Of a stretch of DNA of 4,864 nt, positions 1 to 4,864 are shown in pieces (the stretch's first letter is position 1; every line of letters starts with the position of its first letter). The stretch is from a virus. Lineage: Duplodnaviria > Heunggongvirae > Uroviricota > Caudoviricetes. The position numbers were made by a program, and so were the translations under genes. The stretch lies in IMG/VR virus record IMGVR_UViG_2597490253_000007; one strand, written 5' to 3'. A model generated the notes under the pieces. The model worked only from the letters and a program-made list of their open reading frames with translations. It searched no databases and had not been told where the DNA came from.

Positions 1-921
1 ACCGGGCGTCCGGCCATGCTGCATATTTTCGAGCCGGTGGAGGACGGGCAGACCCGTGGGGCTAATCAGTTTTACAGCGTCATGGAACGGCTGAAGATGC
101 TCGATTCCCTGCAGGCAACACAGCTTCAGTCGGCCATAGTGAAGGCGATGTATGCAGCGACGATTGAAAGTGAACTTGATACCGAAAAGGCCTTTGAATA
201 TATCGCCGGCGCGCCACAGGAGCAGAAGGATAATCCGCTTATTAATATTCTGGAGAAGTTTTCCAGCTGGTATGACACGAATAACGTGACACTGGGCGGT
301 GTCAAAATTCCGCACCTTTTCCCTGGTGATGATCTGAAACTACAGACTGCGCAGGATTCAGACAATGGATTTTCTGCGCTTGAACAGGCGCTGCTGCGGT
401 ATATCGCCGCCGGTCTTGGCGTTTCCTACGAACAGTTGTCCCGTGATTACTCGAAGGTCAGTTACTCAAGTGCCCGCGCCTCCGCCAATGAGTCGTGGCG
501 CTATTTTATGGGGCGGCGAAAATTTATTGCGGCCCGGCTGGCCACGCAGATGTTTTCCTGCTGGCTGGAAGAGGCACTTCTTCGGGGGATTATTCGTCCG
601 CCACGGGCACGTTTTGATTTTTATCAGGCGCGATCAGCCTGGTCACGGGCAGAGTGGATTGGTGCCGGAAGAATGGCCATTGACGGGCTCAAGGAAGTCC
701 AGGAATCAGTGATGCGCATTGAGGCCGGACTGAGCACGTATGAGAAAGAGCTGGCGCTGATGGGCGAGGATTATCAGGACATTTTCCGCCAGCAGGTCAG
801 GGAATCTGCTGAGCGGCAAAAAGCCGGACTCTCACGTCCGGTGTGGATAGAGCAGGCGTATCAGCAGCAGATAGCGGAGAGTCGTAGGCCGGAAGAGGAG
901 ACAACACCACGTGAGACGTAA
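1..921 (+). CDS. B: Phage portal protein, lambda gpB-like; C-terminal part only, 5' end lies upstream of the window
   Basis: Open frame runs from position 1 (codons 1-15 ACC GGG CGT CCG GCC carry no stop) to TAA at 919-921. It sits immediately upstream of the C-D-E homologs, as in lambda. Assignment to the lambda portal family is by gene order and recollection, not a search. The ORF-track start at 16 is only the first Met in the window. Confidence 0.85.
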   Translation, partial: TGRPAMLHIFEPVEDGQTRGANQFYSVMERLKMLDSLQATQLQSAIVKAMYAATIESELDTEKAFEYIAGAPQEQKDNPLINILEKFSSWYDTNNVTLGGVKIPHLFPGDDLKLQTAQDSDNGFSALEQALLRYIAAGLGVSYEQLSRDYSKVSYSSARASANESWRYFMGRRKFIAARLATQMFSCWLEEALLRGIIRPPRARFDFYQARSAWSRAEWIGAGRMAIDGLKEVQESVMRIEAGLSTYEKELALMGEDYQDIFRQQVRESAERQKAGLSRPVWIEQAYQQQIAESRRPEEETTPRET

Positions 922-3055
922 TCTTTCACACATTATTGCCGCAGCATTCAATGAACCGCTGCTTCTGGAGCCCGCCTATGCGCGGGTTTTCTTTTGCGCG
1001 CTCGGGCGCGAGATGGGGGCAGCAAGTCTTTCGGTACCACAACAGCAGGTACAGTTTGATGCTCCCGGAATGCTGGCTGAAACGGACGAGTACATGGCCG
1101 GAGGTAAACGACCGGCCCGTGTTTACCGGGTGGTGAACGGTATTGCTGTACTGCCGGTGACCGGCACGCTGGTGCACCGGCTGGGTGGTATGCGGCCATT
1201 TTCCGGAATGACAGGCTATGACGGCATTGTCGCCTGTCTTCAGCAGGCAATGGCGGATAGCCAGGTGCGGGGCGTACTGCTGGACATTGACAGTCCGGGC
1301 GGGCAGGCCGCCGGCGCGTTTGACTGCGCTGACATGATTTACCGCCTCCGTCAGCAGAAGCCGGTCTGGGCACTGTGCAATGACACGGCCTGTTCTGCAG
1401 CCATGCTGCTGGCGTCGGCCTGCTCCCGACGGCTGGTTACCCAGACATCCCGTATCGGCTCCATTGGCGTGATGATGAGCCATGTCAGCTATGCCGGTCA
1501 TCTGGCGCAGGCCGGTGTGGATATCACGCTGATTTACTCAGGGGCGCACAAGGTGGATGGCAATCAGTTTGAAGCGTTGCCGGCAGAGGTTCGCCAGGAC
1601 ATGCAGCAGCGGATTGATGCGGCGCGCCGGATGTTTGCCGAAAAAGTGGCGATGTTTACCGGTCTGTCTGTTGATGCCGTCACGGGAACAGAGGCTGCCG
1701 TTTTTGAAGGTCAGTCCGGCATTGAGGCCGGGCTGGCGGATGAATTAATCAATGCGTCGGATGCCATCAGTGTGATGGCCACGGCGCTGAACAGTAATGT
1801 CAGAGGAGGCACTATGCCGCAATTAACTGCAACGGAAGCCGCCGCGCAGGAGAACCAGCGAGTGATGGGGATCCTGACATGCCAGGAAGCGAAAGGACGT
1901 GAACAGCTTGCCACGATGCTGGCAGGACAACAGGGCATGAGCGTTGAACAGGCCCGGGCGATTCTGGCCGCGGCGGCACCGCAGCAGCCGGTGGCATCCA
2001 CGCAGAGTGAAGCCGATCGCATTATGGTGTGTGAAGAAGCGAACGGTCGTGAACAACTGGCGGCAACGCTGGCGGCGATGCCGGAGATGACGGTGGAAAC
2101 AGCCCGCCCGATCCTGGCTGCTTCACCGCAGGCGGATGCCGGACCATCACTCCGTGATCAGATCATGGCACTGGATGAGGCAAAAGGGGCTGAGGCGCAG
2201 GCTGAACAGCTGGCTGCCTGCCCGGGAATGACAGTGGAGAGCGCCCGGGCTGTGCTGGCTTCGGGATCAGGTAAGGCAGAACCGGTCTCTGCATCCACAA
2301 CCGCCANNNNNNNNNNAGTCACGGGAACAGAGGCCGCTGTTTTTGAAGGTCAGTCCGGCATTGAGGCCGGGCTGGCGGATGAATTAATCAATGCGTCGGA
2401 TGCCATCAGTGTGATGGCCACGGCGCTGAACAGTAATGTCAGAGGAGGCACTATGCCGCAATTAACTGCAACGGAAGCCGCCGTGCAGGAGAACCAGCGA
2501 GTGATGGGGATCCTGACATGCCAGGAAGCGAAAGGACGTGAACAGCTTGCCACGATGCTGGCAGGGCAACAGGGCATGAGCGTTGAACAGGCCCGGGCGA
2601 TTCTGGCCGCGGCGGCACCGCAGCAGCCGGTGGCATCCGCGCAGAGTGAAGCCGATCGCATTATGGCGTGTGAAGAAGCGAACGGTCGTGAACAACTGGC
2701 GGCAACGCTGGCGGCGATGCCGGAGATGACGGTGGAAAAAGCCCGCCCGATCCTGGCGGCTGCACCACTGGCGGATGCCGGGCCCTCGCTTCGTGATCAG
2801 ATCATGGCCCTGGATGAGGCAAAAGGGGCAGAAGCGCAGGCTGAAAAACTGGCGGCCTGCCCGGGAATGACCGTGGAGAACGCCCGGGCTGTGCTGGCTG
2901 CGGGATCAGGTAAGGCCGAACCGGTCTCTGCATCCACAACCGCCCTGTTTGAACATTTCATGGCGAATCATTCACCGGCAGCGGTGCGGGGTGGCGTGTC
3001 ACAGACGTCAGCAGACGGTGATGCGGACGTGAAAATGCTCATGGCCATGCCATGA
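911..3055 (+). CDS. C: Prohead (head maturation) protease, lambda gpC-like, S49/ClpP-like family, with C-terminal scaffold region; as assembled 714 aa, but interrupted by an N-gap and an in-frame 213-codon duplication, so true length is uncertain (possibly about 501 aa)
   Basis: GTG start at 911 overlaps the portal stop by 11 nt, comparable to the B/C overlap in lambda, with GAAGAGGAG at 891-899 as a possible RBS. The N-terminus (RRNLSHIIAAAFNEPLLLEPAYARVFFCAL) closely matches what I recall of lambda gpC. Likely S49 serine nucleophile context is DTACSAAMLLASA, with a conserved HKVDGN segment downstream. Stop TGA at 3053-3055. The frame passes through N(10) at 2307-2316, which is why the track shows XXXX. 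Confidence 0.85.
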   Translation: MRRNLSHIIAAAFNEPLLLEPAYARVFFCALGREMGAASLSVPQQQVQFDAPGMLAETDEYMAGGKRPARVYRVVNGIAVLPVTGTLVHRLGGMRPFSGMTGYDGIVACLQQAMADSQVRGVLLDIDSPGGQAAGAFDCADMIYRLRQQKPVWALCNDTACSAAMLLASACSRRLVTQTSRIGSIGVMMSHVSYAGHLAQAGVDITLIYSGAHKVDGNQFEALPAEVRQDMQQRIDAARRMFAEKVAMFTGLSVDAVTGTEAAVFEGQSGIEAGLADELINASDAISVMATALNSNVRGGTMPQLTATEAAAQENQRVMGILTCQEAKGREQLATMLAGQQGMSVEQARAILAAAAPQQPVASTQSEADRIMVCEEANGREQLAATLAAMPEMTVETARPILAASPQADAGPSLRDQIMALDEAKGAEAQAEQLAACPGMTVESARAVLASGSGKAEPVSASTTAXXXXVTGTEAAVFEGQSGIEAGLADELINASDAISVMATALNSNVRGGTMPQLTATEAAVQENQRVMGILTCQEAKGREQLATMLAGQQGMSVEQARAILAAAAPQQPVASAQSEADRIMACEEANGREQLAATLAAMPEMTVEKARPILAAAPLADAGPSLRDQIMALDEAKGAEAQAEKLAACPGMTVENARAVLAAGSGKAEPVSASTTALFEHFMANHSPAAVRGGVSQTSADGDADVKMLMAMP
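1679..2306 (+). repeat. Direct repeat copy 1 (628 bp), ending at the N-gap
   Basis: Sequence from gtcacgggaacagagg... to ...gcatccacaaccgcca recurs at 2318-2945 with about 25 nt differences by eye (~96% identity). Confidence 0.9.
1814..3055 (+). CDS. Putative nested scaffolding protein, lambda Nu3-like, translated in-frame from an internal start within the C-like gene and co-terminal with it; length inflated by the duplication
   Basis: Strong Shine-Dalgarno AGGAGG at 1804-1809, 4 nt upstream of ATG 1814 (MPQLTATEAA...), in the same frame as C. In lambda, Nu3 is encoded in-frame within the 3' part of C and shares its stop. The downstream sequence is Ala/Glu/Gln-rich and repetitive, typical of scaffold proteins. 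An identical RBS+ATG recurs at 2443-2448 / 2453 in the second repeat copy. Confidence 0.5.
   Translation: MPQLTATEAAAQENQRVMGILTCQEAKGREQLATMLAGQQGMSVEQARAILAAAAPQQPVASTQSEADRIMVCEEANGREQLAATLAAMPEMTVETARPILAASPQADAGPSLRDQIMALDEAKGAEAQAEQLAACPGMTVESARAVLASGSGKAEPVSASTTAXXXXVTGTEAAVFEGQSGIEAGLADELINASDAISVMATALNSNVRGGTMPQLTATEAAVQENQRVMGILTCQEAKGREQLATMLAGQQGMSVEQARAILAAAAPQQPVASAQSEADRIMACEEANGREQLAATLAAMPEMTVEKARPILAAAPLADAGPSLRDQIMALDEAKGAEAQAEKLAACPGMTVENARAVLAAGSGKAEPVSASTTALFEHFMANHSPAAVRGGVSQTSADGDADVKMLMAMP
2307..2316. other. Assembly gap (10 N) inside the C/Nu3-like coding region
   Basis: Run of n characters in the sequence; the flanks are near-identical to each other. Confidence 0.98.
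2318..2945 (+). repeat. Direct repeat copy 2 (628 bp), starting right after the N-gap
   Basis: Near-identical to 1679-2306 at an offset of exactly 639 bp (213 codons), so the reading frame is preserved. Differences are a mix of synonymous and nonsynonymous changes, concentrated in the 3' two thirds. Confidence 0.9.
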
Positions 3056-3091
3056 AGTCAGTGCTGACCATCAATATGAGGTTTTAACAAA

Positions 3092-3439
3092 ATGGTGACG
3101 AAAACCATCACTGAACAGCGTGCGGAAGTACGTATTTTTGCCGGTAATGATCCGGCTCATACCGCCACAGGCAGCAGCGGGATTTCTTCTGCAACACCGG
3201 CTCTGACGCCCCTGATGCTGGATGAAGCCACCGGGAAACTGGTGGTCTGGGATGGACAGAAAGCCGGTAGTGCGGTTGGCATACTGGTACTGCCGCTTGA
3301 AGGCACAGAGACGGTGCTGACCTATTACAAGTCGGGGACCTTTGCGACGGAGGCAATCCGCTGGCCTGACAGTGTGGATGAACACAAAAAGGCAAATGCC
3401 TTTGCCGGCACAGCCCTGAGTCACGCGGCTCTGCCGTAA
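3092..3439 (+). CDS. D: Head decoration protein, lambda gpD-like (115 aa)
   Basis: ATG at 3092 with GAGG at 3078-3081 as RBS; stop TAA 3437-3439. Size is close to lambda gpD (~110 aa). Segments such as DPAHTATG, TPLMLD, WDG, AVGIL, YKSGTF and AFAGTA match my recollection of gpD. Position between C and E is as in lambda. Confidence 0.9.
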   Translation: MVTKTITEQRAEVRIFAGNDPAHTATGSSGISSATPALTPLMLDEATGKLVVWDGQKAGSAVGILVLPLEGTETVLTYYKSGTFATEAIRWPDSVDEHKKANAFAGTALSHAALP

Positions 3440-3447
3440 CACGTTAT

Positions 3448-3467
3448 CAGGCCACCATGGTGGCCTG
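3448..3467. promoter_or_regulatory. Perfect 20-bp palindrome (CAGGCCACCATGGTGGCCTG) in the D-E intergenic region; possible RNA stem-loop or dimeric protein-binding site
   Basis: Exact reverse-complement symmetry read directly from the sequence, 9 nt after the D stop and about 30 nt before the E start. It is followed by ACTGATTTCTG, which is only weakly U-rich. Confidence 0.4.
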
Positions 3468-3496
3468 ACTGATTTCTGAATGAAAGGAACTGATTT

Positions 3497-4525
3497 ATGG
3501 GATTGTTTACGACCCGCCAGTTACTCGGTTATACCGAACAAAAAGTGAAATTCCGTGCGCTGTTTCTGGAGCTGTTTTTCCGCCGTACGGTGAATTTCCA
3601 CACCGAAGAGGTGATGCTGGACAAAATTACCGGAAAAACGCCGGTGGCGGCCTATGTCTCCCCGATCGTTGAAGGAAAAGTGCTTCGCCATCGCGGTGGT
3701 GAAACCCGCGTGTTACGTCCGGGCTACGTCAAGCCGAAACACGAATTTAATTACCAGCAGGCGGTTGAGCGCCTTCCTGGTGAAGATCCGGCTCAGCTGA
3801 ACGACCCGGCCTACCGTCGTCTGCGTATCATTACCGATAACCTCAAACAGGAAGAGCACGCCATTGTCCAGGTGGAAGAAATGCAGGCGGTGAATGCCGT
3901 GCTGTATGGCAAATACACCATGGAAGGGGATCAGTTTGATACTGTCGAGGTGGATTTCGGGCGCTCTGAAGGAAATAACATTGAGCAGGCTGACGGTAAA
4001 AAATGGTCTGAGCAGGACCGTGATACGTTTGATCCGACGCATGATATTGACCTCTACTGCGATCAGGCCAGCGGCCTTGTGAATATCGCCATTATGGACG
4101 GTACGGTCTGGCGTCTGCTGAATGGCTTTAAGCTGTTCCGCGAAAAACTGGATACCCGTCGCGGCTCAAATTCACAACTCGAAACGGCAGTGAAAGATCT
4201 GGGCGCAGTGGTGTCCTTCAAGGGGTATTACGGCGATCTGGCCATTGTGGTGGCGAAAACGTCTTATGTGGCAGAGGACGGTACCGAAAAACGTTATCTG
4301 CCGGAGGGCATGCTGGTGTTGGGGAATACGGCGGCAGAGGGGATTCGTTGCTATGGTGCCATTAAGGATGCACAGGCGTTGTCTGAAGGAGTGGTGGCTT
4401 CTTCCCGTTACCCGAAACACTGGCTGACCGTGGGCGATCCGTCCTGTGAATTCACCATGACGCAGTCCGCTCCGCTGATGGTGCTGCCGGATCCGGATGA
4501 GTTTGTGGTGGTACAGGTGAAATAA
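3497..4525 (+). CDS. E: Major capsid protein, lambda gpE-like (342 aa)
   Basis: ATG at 3497 with AAGGA at 3484-3488 as RBS; stop TAA 4523-4525. Length (342 aa) is about that of lambda gpE, and many segments (YVSPIV, PGYVKPKHE, DPAYRR, VEEMQAV, KLDTRRGSNS, LETAVKDLG, MVLGNT, TMTQSAPLM, PDPDEF) match my recollection of gpE. Confidence 0.95.
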   Translation: MGLFTTRQLLGYTEQKVKFRALFLELFFRRTVNFHTEEVMLDKITGKTPVAAYVSPIVEGKVLRHRGGETRVLRPGYVKPKHEFNYQQAVERLPGEDPAQLNDPAYRRLRIITDNLKQEEHAIVQVEEMQAVNAVLYGKYTMEGDQFDTVEVDFGRSEGNNIEQADGKKWSEQDRDTFDPTHDIDLYCDQASGLVNIAIMDGTVWRLLNGFKLFREKLDTRRGSNSQLETAVKDLGAVVSFKGYYGDLAIVVAKTSYVAEDGTEKRYLPEGMLVLGNTAAEGIRCYGAIKDAQALSEGVVASSRYPKHWLTVGDPSCEFTMTQSAPLMVLPDPDEFVVVQVK

Positions 4526-4533
4526 TCCGTGAG

Positions 4534-4562
4534 CGGGGGCGAAATGCCCCCGTGTCTTTTTT
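4534..4562 (+). terminator. Putative rho-independent terminator (or partial terminator/attenuator) between E and FI
   Basis: GC-rich hairpin CGGGGGC (4534-4540), loop GAAAT, GCCCCCG (4546-4552), followed by TGTC and then TTTTTT at 4557-4562, beginning 9 nt after the E stop codon. Confidence 0.6.
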
Positions 4563-4576
4563 CACAGGAGGCTGAG

Positions 4577-4864
4577 ATGGCAACAAAAGAAGAAAATCTG
4601 AATCGTCTTCGTCAACTGGCTGACCTGCTGGGGCGCGAGGCGGATATGTCGGGGAGTGCTGCGGATATTGCTCAACGTGTGTCTGAGTGGGAAGAGGAGC
4701 TTGCTGTTTCCCCGGAGGGCATTATGCACTCTGATGAGAGCGGGGCTGATCAAAATCACACAGACGATGGTGAGCAGTTGAACAACACGGATGCTCCGGA
4801 TGATGTTAAAGCCGTCCGGGTACGGAAGTGCCTGCAAGTAATGGGGTATTGCCCGGAGACAGGT
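4577..4864 (+). CDS. FI: FI-like DNA-packaging/head assembly protein, N-terminal part (3' end beyond the window)
   Basis: ATG at 4577 preceded by AGGAGG at 4566-4571 (5-nt spacing); open for 96 codons to the window end. The N-terminus MATKEENLNRLRQLADLLGRE...AQRVSEWEEEL resembles what I recall of lambda gpFI, and the gene follows E as in lambda. Absent from the ORF track because no stop falls within the window. Confidence 0.6.
   Translation, partial: MATKEENLNRLRQLADLLGREADMSGSAADIAQRVSEWEEELAVSPEGIMHSDESGADQNHTDDGEQLNNTDAPDDVKAVRVRKCLQVMGYCPETG

What the first reader, a model, noticed from the sequence alone, without database searches (positions are those of the whole stretch)
1679..2945. 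N-gap inside the protease/scaffold gene flanked by ~96%-identical 628-bp direct repeats at an exact in-frame offset (639 bp)
The two flanks of the N(10) gap are near-identical copies of the same 628-bp segment (1679-2306 and 2318-2945), offset by exactly 213 codons, so the assembled ORF reads through as 714 aa. The copies differ at about 25 positions, both synonymous (e.g. GCT GCC vs GCC GCT, GGA vs GGG) and nonsynonymous (A/V, T/A, V/A, T/K, S/A, Q/L, Q/K, S/N, S/A), mostly in the 3' two thirds. This is either a scaffolding artefact, in which two contig ends that truly overlap were joined with a placeholder gap (for example two related prophages or a mixed population), or a genuine diverged tandem duplication of the scaffold domain. 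The gene model cannot be trusted until this is resolved.
Basis: seen in the sequence. Interest (0 to 1): 0.55.

Follow-up and report, generated by a model that had tools for sequence, protein, structure and literature searches.

The report
Scaffold join duplicating prophage protease gene
The 628-bp "repeat" is not a real duplication: an assembly placeholder gap joins contig ends from two different but related lambda-like prophages, turning an ordinary 501-residue head protease/scaffold gene into a false 714-residue one.

Summary
A 10-N run lies at 2307-2316. Segments 1679-2306 and 2318-2945 match at 602 of 628 bases, offset by 639 bp (213 codons).

The repeat is an assembly artefact.
- Everything left of the gap (1-2306) matches one lambdoid prophage of E. 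coli UTI89 and phage 21. It differs from that UTI89 prophage at 4 positions, against 65 for the other UTI89 prophage.
- Everything right of the gap (2317-4864) matches a second UTI89 prophage about 148 kb away. It differs at 1 position, against 294.
- 25 of the 27 differences between the copies are the differences between those two prophages.
- Both contig ends fall exactly on positions that distinguish the two prophages.

Every gap-free sequence examined has one copy. The stretch spans 4225 bp (4864 minus 639) in all 30 listed complete E. coli genomes. The gene is 1506 nt (501 aa) in the four annotated genome loci and in phage 21, and other cultured phages match over the same 1506 bp. 83 IMG/VR loci also have one copy.

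No junction of this kind was found in three public collections, although the control patterns matched. No protein with this 213-residue duplication ranked at the top of a 5.8-billion-protein search.

The real gene is the phage 21 gene 5/6 homologue: a lambda C-type S49 prohead protease with a nested Nu3-type scaffold. The in-frame read-through is a one-in-three coincidence (629 + 10 = 639). Low interest.

The parts
1..2306 (+). Left contig, carrying the haplotype of the phage-21-like prophage ('A', UTI89 1.266 Mb)
   Evidence: 4 differences in 2306 bases to UTI89 prophage A, against 65 to prophage B. It carries the A allele at 37 of 38 A/B-discriminating sites in 1-1677 and at all 25 in 1678-2306. 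The overlap segment differs from phage 21 at 2 of 628 positions.
2307..2316 (.). 10-N placeholder gap between the two contigs
   Evidence: This is the only N run in the window. The prophage haplotype switches exactly here.
2317..4864 (+). Right contig, carrying the haplotype of a second lambdoid prophage ('B', UTI89 1.415 Mb)
   Evidence: 1 difference in 2548 bases to UTI89 prophage B, against 294 mismatched positions to prophage A in an ungapped comparison, many of them past collapsed coordinate about 4060 where register is lost. The first 629 bases are 100% identical to the single-copy gene in at least 25 complete genomes.
1678..2306 (+). Copy 1 of the overlapped segment (codons 257-465 of the real gene, A haplotype)
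   Evidence: The best match in complete genomes is 99.7%, leaving two private alleles at 2100 and 2261.
2317..2945 (+). Copy 2 of the same segment (B haplotype)
   Evidence: It also matches 7 IMG/VR loci exactly at the 26 informative sites.
911..3055 (+). Assembled 714-aa ORF, a false model of the S49 prohead protease/scaffold gene (real length 1506 nt, 501 aa)
   Evidence: One search gives the ORF. Pfam PF01343 Peptidase_S49 covers residues 146-293. The gene is 1506 nt in the four annotated genome loci and in phage 21. The other top cultured phages match over 1506 bp. Both ways of collapsing the overlap give 1506 nt and 501 aa.
1814..2306 (+). Nested in-frame scaffold gene (phage 21 gene 6, lambda Nu3 equivalent). 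The start ATG is at 1814 behind GAGGAGG at 1803-1809. The left contig ends before its stop.
   Evidence: Transferred from the phage 21 annotations in M81255.1 and OL657228.1. The sequence was read.
2453..3055 (+). The same nested scaffold gene in the right contig, complete (200 aa)
   Evidence: Same register plus 639.
1881..2275 (+). Three 'Tri boxes' (1881-1984, 2021-2131, 2162-2275), which are internal repeats of about 50 aa in the scaffold part. They appear again at 2520-2623, 2660-2770 and 2801-2914 in copy 2.
   Evidence: Repeat_region features of M81255.1 mapped onto the window.
1..921 (+). 3' part of the lambda-type portal gene. Its stop overlaps the GTG start at 911 by 11 nt.
   Evidence: PF05136 and the RefSeq annotation of the homologous loci.
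3092..3439 (+). Head decoration protein (lambda D / phage 21 Shp family)
   Evidence: PF02924.
3497..4525 (+). Major capsid protein (lambda E family)
   Evidence: PF03864.
4577..4864 (+). 5' part of the DNA-packaging protein FI gene
   Evidence: PF14000.

Best explanation
The direct repeat is an assembly artefact. The sequenced genome, most likely an E. coli of the UTI89/ST95 kind, carries at least two lambdoid prophages with nearly identical head-gene modules. One contig ran through the portal gene of the phage-21-like prophage ('A') and stopped at codon 465 of its S49 protease/scaffold gene. Another contig began at codon 257 of the paralogous gene in a second prophage ('B') and continued through the decoration, capsid and FI genes.

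A scaffolding or contig-ordering step placed the two contigs next to each other. Because the 629-bp ends differ at 27 positions they were not merged, and a minimal 10-N placeholder was written between them. The offset is 629 + 10 = 639 = 3 x 213. The frame is therefore kept by a one-in-three coincidence, and a gene caller reads a 714-aa protein with four X.

What is shown: the haplotype of each side, the single-copy state in every gap-free relative examined, and the absence of any such junction elsewhere.

What is inferred: the step that produced the join, that both prophages sit in one genome, and whether the two contigs are really neighbours.

The real gene on either prophage is an ordinary 501-aa lambda C-type prohead protease with a nested 200-aa Nu3-type scaffold protein.
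For: 1. Haplotypes. The left contig differs from UTI89 prophage A at 4 of 2306 positions and from B at 65. The right contig differs from B at 1 of 2548 positions and from A at 294. 25 of the 27 differences between the copies are exactly the A/B differences in UTI89, so the haplotype switches at the N run.

2. The two haplotypes occur as separate single-copy genes in the same chromosome, in the same orientation and about 148-150 kb apart. Examples are UTI89, S88, IHE3034, NU14, UM146 and ATCC 11775. At least 16 records appear in both top-25 lists.

3. In all 30 listed complete genomes the window's stretch spans 4225 bp = 4864 - 639. The gene is 1506 nt in the four annotated genome loci and in phage 21. 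The other top cultured phages match over 1506 bp.

4. In 83 IMG/VR loci that hold both boundary motifs, each motif occurs once. The spacing is the standard one in 77 loci, shorter by 57 bp in 5 and shorter by 12 bp in 1.

5. The junction pattern (end of the segment, 0-30 bases of any kind, start of the segment) has no match in IMG/VR, JGI metagenomes or GTDB species genomes. It does match the window itself. The normal 3' boundary has at least 120 matches in IMG/VR.

6. Searching the 714-aa product against 5.8 billion proteins ranked no protein with this duplication at the top. Among the 120 listed hits, the only one covering 100% of the query is a 657-aa protein with a different 468-bp duplication.

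7. Both contig termini (2306, and 2317 = position 1678) fall exactly on A/B-discriminating bases. The chance of this is about 0.002, as expected if the contigs broke where reads of the two prophages diverge.

8. Copy 2 is 100% identical to existing single-copy genes and copy 1 is 2 bases from phage 21. The copies therefore did not diverge in place after a duplication.
Against: No reads are available, so the join itself cannot be inspected. I did not verify that a 10-N run means 'gap not estimated or negative'. That rests on my general knowledge of assembler and submission conventions. Real tandem duplications in this very gene do exist in gap-free genomes, for example 468 bp in O145:H28 RM12581 and RM13514, so the gene can tolerate them. 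Natural A/B recombinant prophages also exist, such as FDAARGOS_1292 with a crossover in 2029-2099. An unequal A x B exchange would give the same flank haplotypes. The source assembly was not found, so the presence of two prophages in that genome is inferred from relatives.
Confidence: 0.9

Rival explanations
1. The artefact is the same, but the two haplotypes are allelic. The sample was a mixture of two strains or prophage variants at one locus, and the two contigs represent the same place in two genomes.
For: The sequence alone cannot separate paralogous from allelic variants. Haplotypes of this segment are very diverse and mosaic among E. coli prophages.
Against: Many complete genomes carry exactly these two haplotypes together on one chromosome. 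That makes two prophages in one genome the simpler reading. A mixture would have to show A-type only on the left and B-type only on the right.
Confidence: 0.07
2. The contigs are true neighbours. The genome has a hybrid A-left/B-right prophage, like the recombinant in FDAARGOS_1292, and further related prophages misled the assembler at both contig ends. The join is then correct in order and only the overlap is uncollapsed.
For: A natural hybrid exists with A-type sequence up to 2028 and B-type from 2100. It is the best whole-window match among complete genomes, at 99.4%.
Against: The separate UTI89 prophages match the unique flanks at least as well. They show 2 and 1 differences outside the overlap, against 4 and 2 for the hybrid. 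Both full 629-bp haplotypes are present in the assembly, so at least one more copy must exist. The data do not require a hybrid.
Confidence: 0.15
3. A genuine 639-bp tandem duplication, formed by unequal recombination between the two prophages. It would give a 714-aa protease with six Tri boxes and two internal scaffold start sites. The N run would merely mark a short stretch that could not be sequenced at the junction.
For: The offset is in frame. A gap-free 468-bp duplication in the same gene exists in two O145:H28 genomes. Tri-box copy number varies naturally between 451 and 551 aa.
Against: The gap lies exactly at the would-be junction, with no unique junction sequence. A junction between copies that differ by 4% is unique sequence that assemblers normally cross. 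No such junction exists in three public collections, although the controls matched. No such protein ranked at the top among 5.8 billion. The examined gap-free relatives, apart from the two O145:H28 genomes with a different 468-bp duplication, are single-copy. Both contig ends sit on paralogue-discriminating bases. The 639-bp offset includes the arbitrary 10 N.
Confidence: 0.03

Closest known systems
Phage 21 gene 5 / gene 6 (head-tail preconnector, i.e. capsid protease/scaffolding protein; M81255.1, OL657228.1)
   Same: 98.5% nucleotide identity over the gene. Copy 1 differs from phage 21 at 2 of 628 positions. The gene order is the same: portal, protease/scaffold, decoration, major capsid. 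The nested in-frame scaffold start and the three annotated Tri boxes are also the same.
   Different: Phage 21 has one copy of the segment (1506 nt, 501 aa). The window shows two copies separated by N.
The two S49 family peptidase genes of E. coli UTI89 prophages (WP_001253914.1 at 1.266 Mb and WP_001253958.1 at 1.415 Mb)
   Same: The left contig equals the first and the right contig equals the second, almost base for base.
   Different: In UTI89 they are two separate 1506-nt genes 148 kb apart. In the window, half of one is abutted to two thirds of the other.
Bacteriophage lambda C (prohead protease, MEROPS S49) with nested Nu3 (scaffold)
   Same: The window gene has an S49 peptidase domain (PF01343) and is related to SppA structures 3RST and 3BEZ. 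It sits in the lambda-type head module and has an internal in-frame start for the scaffold protein. The roles of C, Nu3 and the portal B in forming the initiator of head assembly are described in PMC3224144.
   Different: The scaffold part here is longer (200 aa) and holds three Tri repeats. To my knowledge, not checked here, lambda C is shorter, about 439 aa.
False duplications at scaffold gaps in draft assemblies (uncollapsed overlapping contig ends)
   Same: The N run lies exactly between two copies of the same reference interval. The copy boundaries equal the contig ends. Finished genomes are single-copy.
   Different: The two ends are paralogous, from two prophages, and not two readings of one locus. 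The result is both a false duplication and a possible misjoin.
468-bp tandem duplication in the S49 gene of E. coli O145:H28 RM12581 and RM13514 (CP007136.1, CP006027.1)
   Same: It affects the same gene, is also in frame, and also includes the internal scaffold start.
   Different: It is gap-free with a defined junction at a short imperfect homology. The copies are identical except at the junction, and the period and boundaries differ. It is the kind of evidence the window's repeat lacks.

Membership tests
Scaffolding artefact (uncollapsed or paralogous contig-end overlap at a placeholder gap) | A run of N lies exactly at the boundary between the two copies | tested here: met
   N at 2307-2316. 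Copy 1 ends at 2306 and copy 2 starts at 2317.
Scaffolding artefact (uncollapsed or paralogous contig-end overlap at a placeholder gap) | Both copies map to the same interval of gap-free reference sequences, which hold it once | tested here: met
   The span is 4225 bp in all 30 listed complete genomes. The gene is 1506 nt in the annotated genome loci and in phage 21. 83 of 83 IMG/VR loci with both boundary motifs hold each motif once.
Scaffolding artefact (uncollapsed or paralogous contig-end overlap at a placeholder gap) | The differences between the copies are explained by known sequence variants, not by divergence in place | tested here: met
   25 of 27 differences equal the UTI89 prophage A/B differences. 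The flanks are A-type on the left and B-type on the right. Copy 2 is identical to existing single-copy genes.
Scaffolding artefact (uncollapsed or paralogous contig-end overlap at a placeholder gap) | Reads support one copy per locus and none span two copies | not testable with these tools
   No reads or assembly graph are available, and the source assembly was not found.
Genuine tandem duplication | A defined, continuous junction sequence between the copies | tested here: not met
   The junction consists only of N.
Genuine tandem duplication | The same junction or product is seen in independent sequences | tested here: not met
   There are 0 matches in IMG/VR, JGI metagenomes and GTDB genomes, with working controls. 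No protein with the 213-residue duplication ranked at the top of the search.
Lambda C / phage 21 gp5 prohead protease-scaffold (peptidase family S49) | S49 peptidase domain | tested here: met
   PF01343, E = 1.5e-34, residues 146-293. SppA 3RST, E = 2.5e-16.
Lambda C / phage 21 gp5 prohead protease-scaffold (peptidase family S49) | Catalytic residues of the Ser/Lys dyad | tested here: inconclusive
   S162 aligns with the Ser of the AASGG motif of B. subtilis SppA. The position of the Lys in SppA's 'IKSGAH' is Y209 here, with K214 nearby. Which SppA residues are catalytic is from memory, not tested.
Lambda C / phage 21 gp5 prohead protease-scaffold (peptidase family S49) | Position between the portal and the decoration/major capsid genes, with a nested in-frame scaffold gene | tested here: met
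   The gene order follows from Pfam. The nested start at 1814, with its ribosome-binding site, matches the phage 21 annotation.

The most novel reading that the evidence does not exclude
The duplication is real. An unequal exchange between two resident lambdoid prophages created a head protease gene with a 213-codon in-frame duplication. It would carry six Tri repeats and two internal scaffold start sites, so it could make scaffold proteins of two lengths. The N run would hide only a few junction bases.
Probability: 0.03. Interest if true: 0.3.

Novelty: not a real feature. Interest (0 to 1): 0.06.

Why it matters
The main consequence is practical. The 714-aa gene model is false and should not enter protein databases or comparative analyses. 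The scaffold at this point may join two prophages that lie about 150 kb apart in related genomes, so prophage boundaries, counts and synteny drawn from this scaffold are unreliable. The case also gives a recognisable signature. An N run flanked by near-identical, in-frame direct repeats whose differences match known paralogue variants points to abutted paralogous contig ends. There is no new biology in the repeat itself.

Tried and rejected
1. Finding the source assembly. I searched for the exact sequence across the gap in IMG/VR and GTDB genomes and for the left contig's private allele at 2100 in IMG/VR. Nothing was found.

2. Divergence in place after a duplication. Rejected, because the differences are standing variants shared with other prophages.

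3. Unequal recombination between the Tri repeats as the source of the 639-bp offset. Rejected. Natural Tri-related length variants differ by 150 bp or 57 bp. The 639 bp includes the arbitrary 10 N and starts inside the protease domain.

4. A literature search for the meaning of 10-N gaps returned only unrelated papers, where '10 ns' means nanoseconds. That convention is stated from my own knowledge only.

5. I tried to work out which assembler would end contigs exactly on variant bases. I reached no firm conclusion and report only the coincidence and its rough probability.
Full report
**Observation.** The window holds one run of N, at 2307-2316. Segments 1679-2306 and 2318-2945 are 628 bp each and identical at 602 positions, at an offset of 639 bp. 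The homology includes one more base: 2317 corresponds to 1678 and is a mismatch. The two flanks of the gap therefore overlap by 629 bp with 27 differences. Twenty of the differences lie in the last 207 bp.

**What the region is.** The window is a lambda-type head module. It holds the 3' part of the portal gene (1-921, PF05136) and an S49 peptidase gene (from 911, PF01343). These are followed by the head decoration gene (3092-3439, PF02924), the major capsid gene (3497-4525, PF03864) and the start of FI (4577 onward, PF14000).

- The peptidase gene is the homologue of phage 21 gene 5, at 98.5% identity.
- The phage 21 records annotate it as capsid protease/scaffolding protein, similar to lambda C. 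They also annotate a nested in-frame gene 6 (lambda Nu3 equivalent) and three 'Tri boxes' of unknown function.
- Mapped onto the window, the nested start is the ATG at 1814 behind GAGGAGG at 1803-1809. The Tri boxes are at 1881-1984, 2021-2131 and 2162-2275. All of these recur 639 bp downstream.
- The protease part is related to the solved SppA structures.
- In lambda, the C protease, the Nu3 scaffold and the portal form the initiator of head assembly (PMC3224144).

**Single copy in gap-free sequences.** The whole window finds 1549 complete E. coli genomes that cover at least 80% of it. In all 30 listed, the match spans exactly 4225 bp, which is 4864 minus 639.

- In the four annotated genome loci the gene is 1506 nt, or 501 aa.
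- Phage 21 has the same 1506-nt gene. The other top cultured phages, including ev017, 4A7, 1W and 3W, match over the same 1506 bp.
- In 120 IMG/VR loci retrieved by the normal 3' boundary of the segment, the 83 that also hold the 5' boundary motif hold each motif once. The spacing is standard in 77, 57 bp shorter in 5 and 12 bp shorter in 1.

**Where the two copies come from.** Copy 1 and copy 2 were searched separately against complete genomes. They hit different places in the same chromosomes.

- In UTI89, copy 1 matches at 1,266,453 (99.7%) and copy 2 at 1,414,933 (100%).
- In S88, IHE3034, NU14, UM146, ATCC 11775 and others, the two hits are also about 150 kb apart and in the same orientation.

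Both UTI89 loci are lambdoid prophage head modules with the same gene order. The base-by-base comparison gives the following.

| Contig | Differences to UTI89 prophage A | Differences to UTI89 prophage B |
|---|---|---|
| Left (1-2306) | 4 | 65 |
| Right (2317-4864) | 294 | 1 |

- Of the 27 differences between the copies, 25 are exactly the A/B differences of UTI89. The other two (2100 and 2261) are private alleles of the left contig.
- Phage 21 carries the same haplotype as prophage A in this segment.
- The prophage haplotype therefore switches exactly at the N run.
- The last base of the left contig (2306) and the first base of the right contig (2317, equivalent to 1678) are themselves A/B-discriminating bases. 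The chance of both is about 0.002. This fits contigs that broke where reads of the two prophages diverge.

**Tests of a real duplication.** If the copies had diverged in place, their differences would be private mutations. Instead they are standing variants. Copy 2 is identical to existing single-copy genes.

- Only an unequal exchange between the two prophages could have made a real duplication with these flanks. Its junction would be unique sequence.
- A pattern made of the conserved end of the segment, 0-30 bases of any kind, and the conserved start of the segment has no match in IMG/VR, JGI metagenomes or GTDB species genomes.
- The same pattern does match the window. The normal boundary has at least 120 matches in IMG/VR. 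The negative result is therefore meaningful.
- The 714-aa product was searched against 5.8 billion proteins. A true duplicate would score highest, but no protein with this 213-residue duplication ranked at the top. Among the 120 listed hits, the only one covering the whole query is a 657-aa protein.
- That 657-aa protein comes from E. coli O145:H28 RM12581. It is due to a different, gap-free 468-bp tandem duplication, with copies identical except at a junction of short imperfect homology. The same junction is present in the sister genome RM13514 and in no other listed genome.
- This shows what a documented duplication in this gene looks like, and the window's repeat has none of those properties.

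**How the artefact most likely arose (inferred).** Two head modules differ by only 27 positions over this 629-bp segment and share a 145-bp identical stretch at 1700-1844. This creates branches in a short-read assembly, and the contigs ended inside the shared region.

- A scaffolder or a reference-guided ordering step then linked the A-type left contig to the B-type right contig.
- The ends differ at 27 positions, so they were not merged. A minimal 10-N gap was written between them. The meaning of 10 N is my own knowledge of common conventions and was not verified here (led nowhere).
- 629 + 10 = 639 is divisible by three by chance, which is why the ORF reads through.
- Either way of collapsing the overlap gives a 1506-nt, 501-aa ORF. 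Such a collapsed gene could still be a chimera of two paralogues, and the two contigs may not be neighbours at all.
- A natural A/B recombinant prophage does exist: FDAARGOS_1292, with a crossover between 2029 and 2099. I therefore keep a modest probability that the order of the contigs is right.
- A mixed sample, instead of two prophages in one genome, cannot be excluded from sequence alone. It is less simple, given how many genomes carry both haplotypes.

**Verdict.** The feature is a scaffolding artefact, not a biological duplication. The underlying gene is a well-known phage 21/lambda C-Nu3-type prohead protease/scaffold gene. The tandem-duplication alternative is left at about 3%. Interest is low, and the value lies in flagging the false 714-aa gene model and a possible misjoin.

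Noticed in passing
window 1881-2275 (and 2520-2914); proteins P0119, P0038, P0010/P0011; locus L006 4163-4462: The scaffold part holds three repeats of about 50 aa (the 'Tri boxes' of phage 21, function unknown). The protein shows natural length variants. Versions of 451/452 aa lack one 50-aa unit, and 482-aa versions lack 19 aa and are very common. The standard length is 501 aa, and 551-aa versions have one extra 50-aa unit. The 551-aa locus L006 has single N bases at the repeat boundaries, so that variant may itself be an assembly product.
   Followed up: partly
L005 4813-5748 (CP007136.1, E. coli O145:H28 RM12581); also NZ_CP006027.1 (RM13514): A gap-free 468-bp in-frame tandem duplication lies in the same S49 gene and gives a 657-aa product. 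The copies are identical except at the junction, which sits at a short imperfect homology (GAGGC..GGCTG). It duplicates the internal scaffold start. It was seen only in these two outbreak-related genomes, and in RM13514 the RefSeq annotation shows two S49 features.
   Followed up: partly
L001 (NZ_CP070124.1), equivalent to window 2029-2099: The best whole-window match among complete genomes is a natural recombinant, A-type up to 2028 and B-type from 2100. Across 77 IMG/VR loci, the 26 informative sites occur in many mosaic combinations. This points to frequent recombination among lambdoid prophage head genes.
   Followed up: partly
window 2100 and 2261: The left contig has two private alleles in its last 207 bases. 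C at 2100 (K397T) was seen in none of the compared genomes, phages or IMG/VR loci. T at 2261 (A451S) occurs in some other haplotypes. They may be contig-end errors or real rare variants.
   Followed up: partly
proteins P0088 (721 aa), P0095 (577 aa), P0002 (748 aa), P0085 (517 aa): Other odd gene models exist for the same gene. Two are fusions after '...VLAAGSG' to two different tail-fibre-like sequences. Two are in-frame fusions of the portal to the S49 gene at the same acceptor, '...|NGIAVLPV'. They could be prophage deletions or further assembly chimeras.
   Followed up: no
window 3447-3468 and 4533-4553, + strand: GC-rich hairpins, the second followed by a T run, lie just after the decoration gene and the major capsid gene. 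They look like terminators or RNA-stabilising hairpins inside the late operon.
   Followed up: no
window 911-921: The GTG start of the protease gene overlaps the end of the portal gene by 11 nt. The RefSeq and phage 21 records annotate it the same way.
   Followed up: no
L004 5234-6736 (residues 162, 209, 214 of the 501-aa protein): In the alignment to B. subtilis SppA, the nucleophile Ser position is conserved (S162). The position of SppA's Lys in 'IKSGAH' is Tyr here, with a Lys five residues later. The general base of this phage protease is therefore not obvious from the alignment.
   Followed up: no
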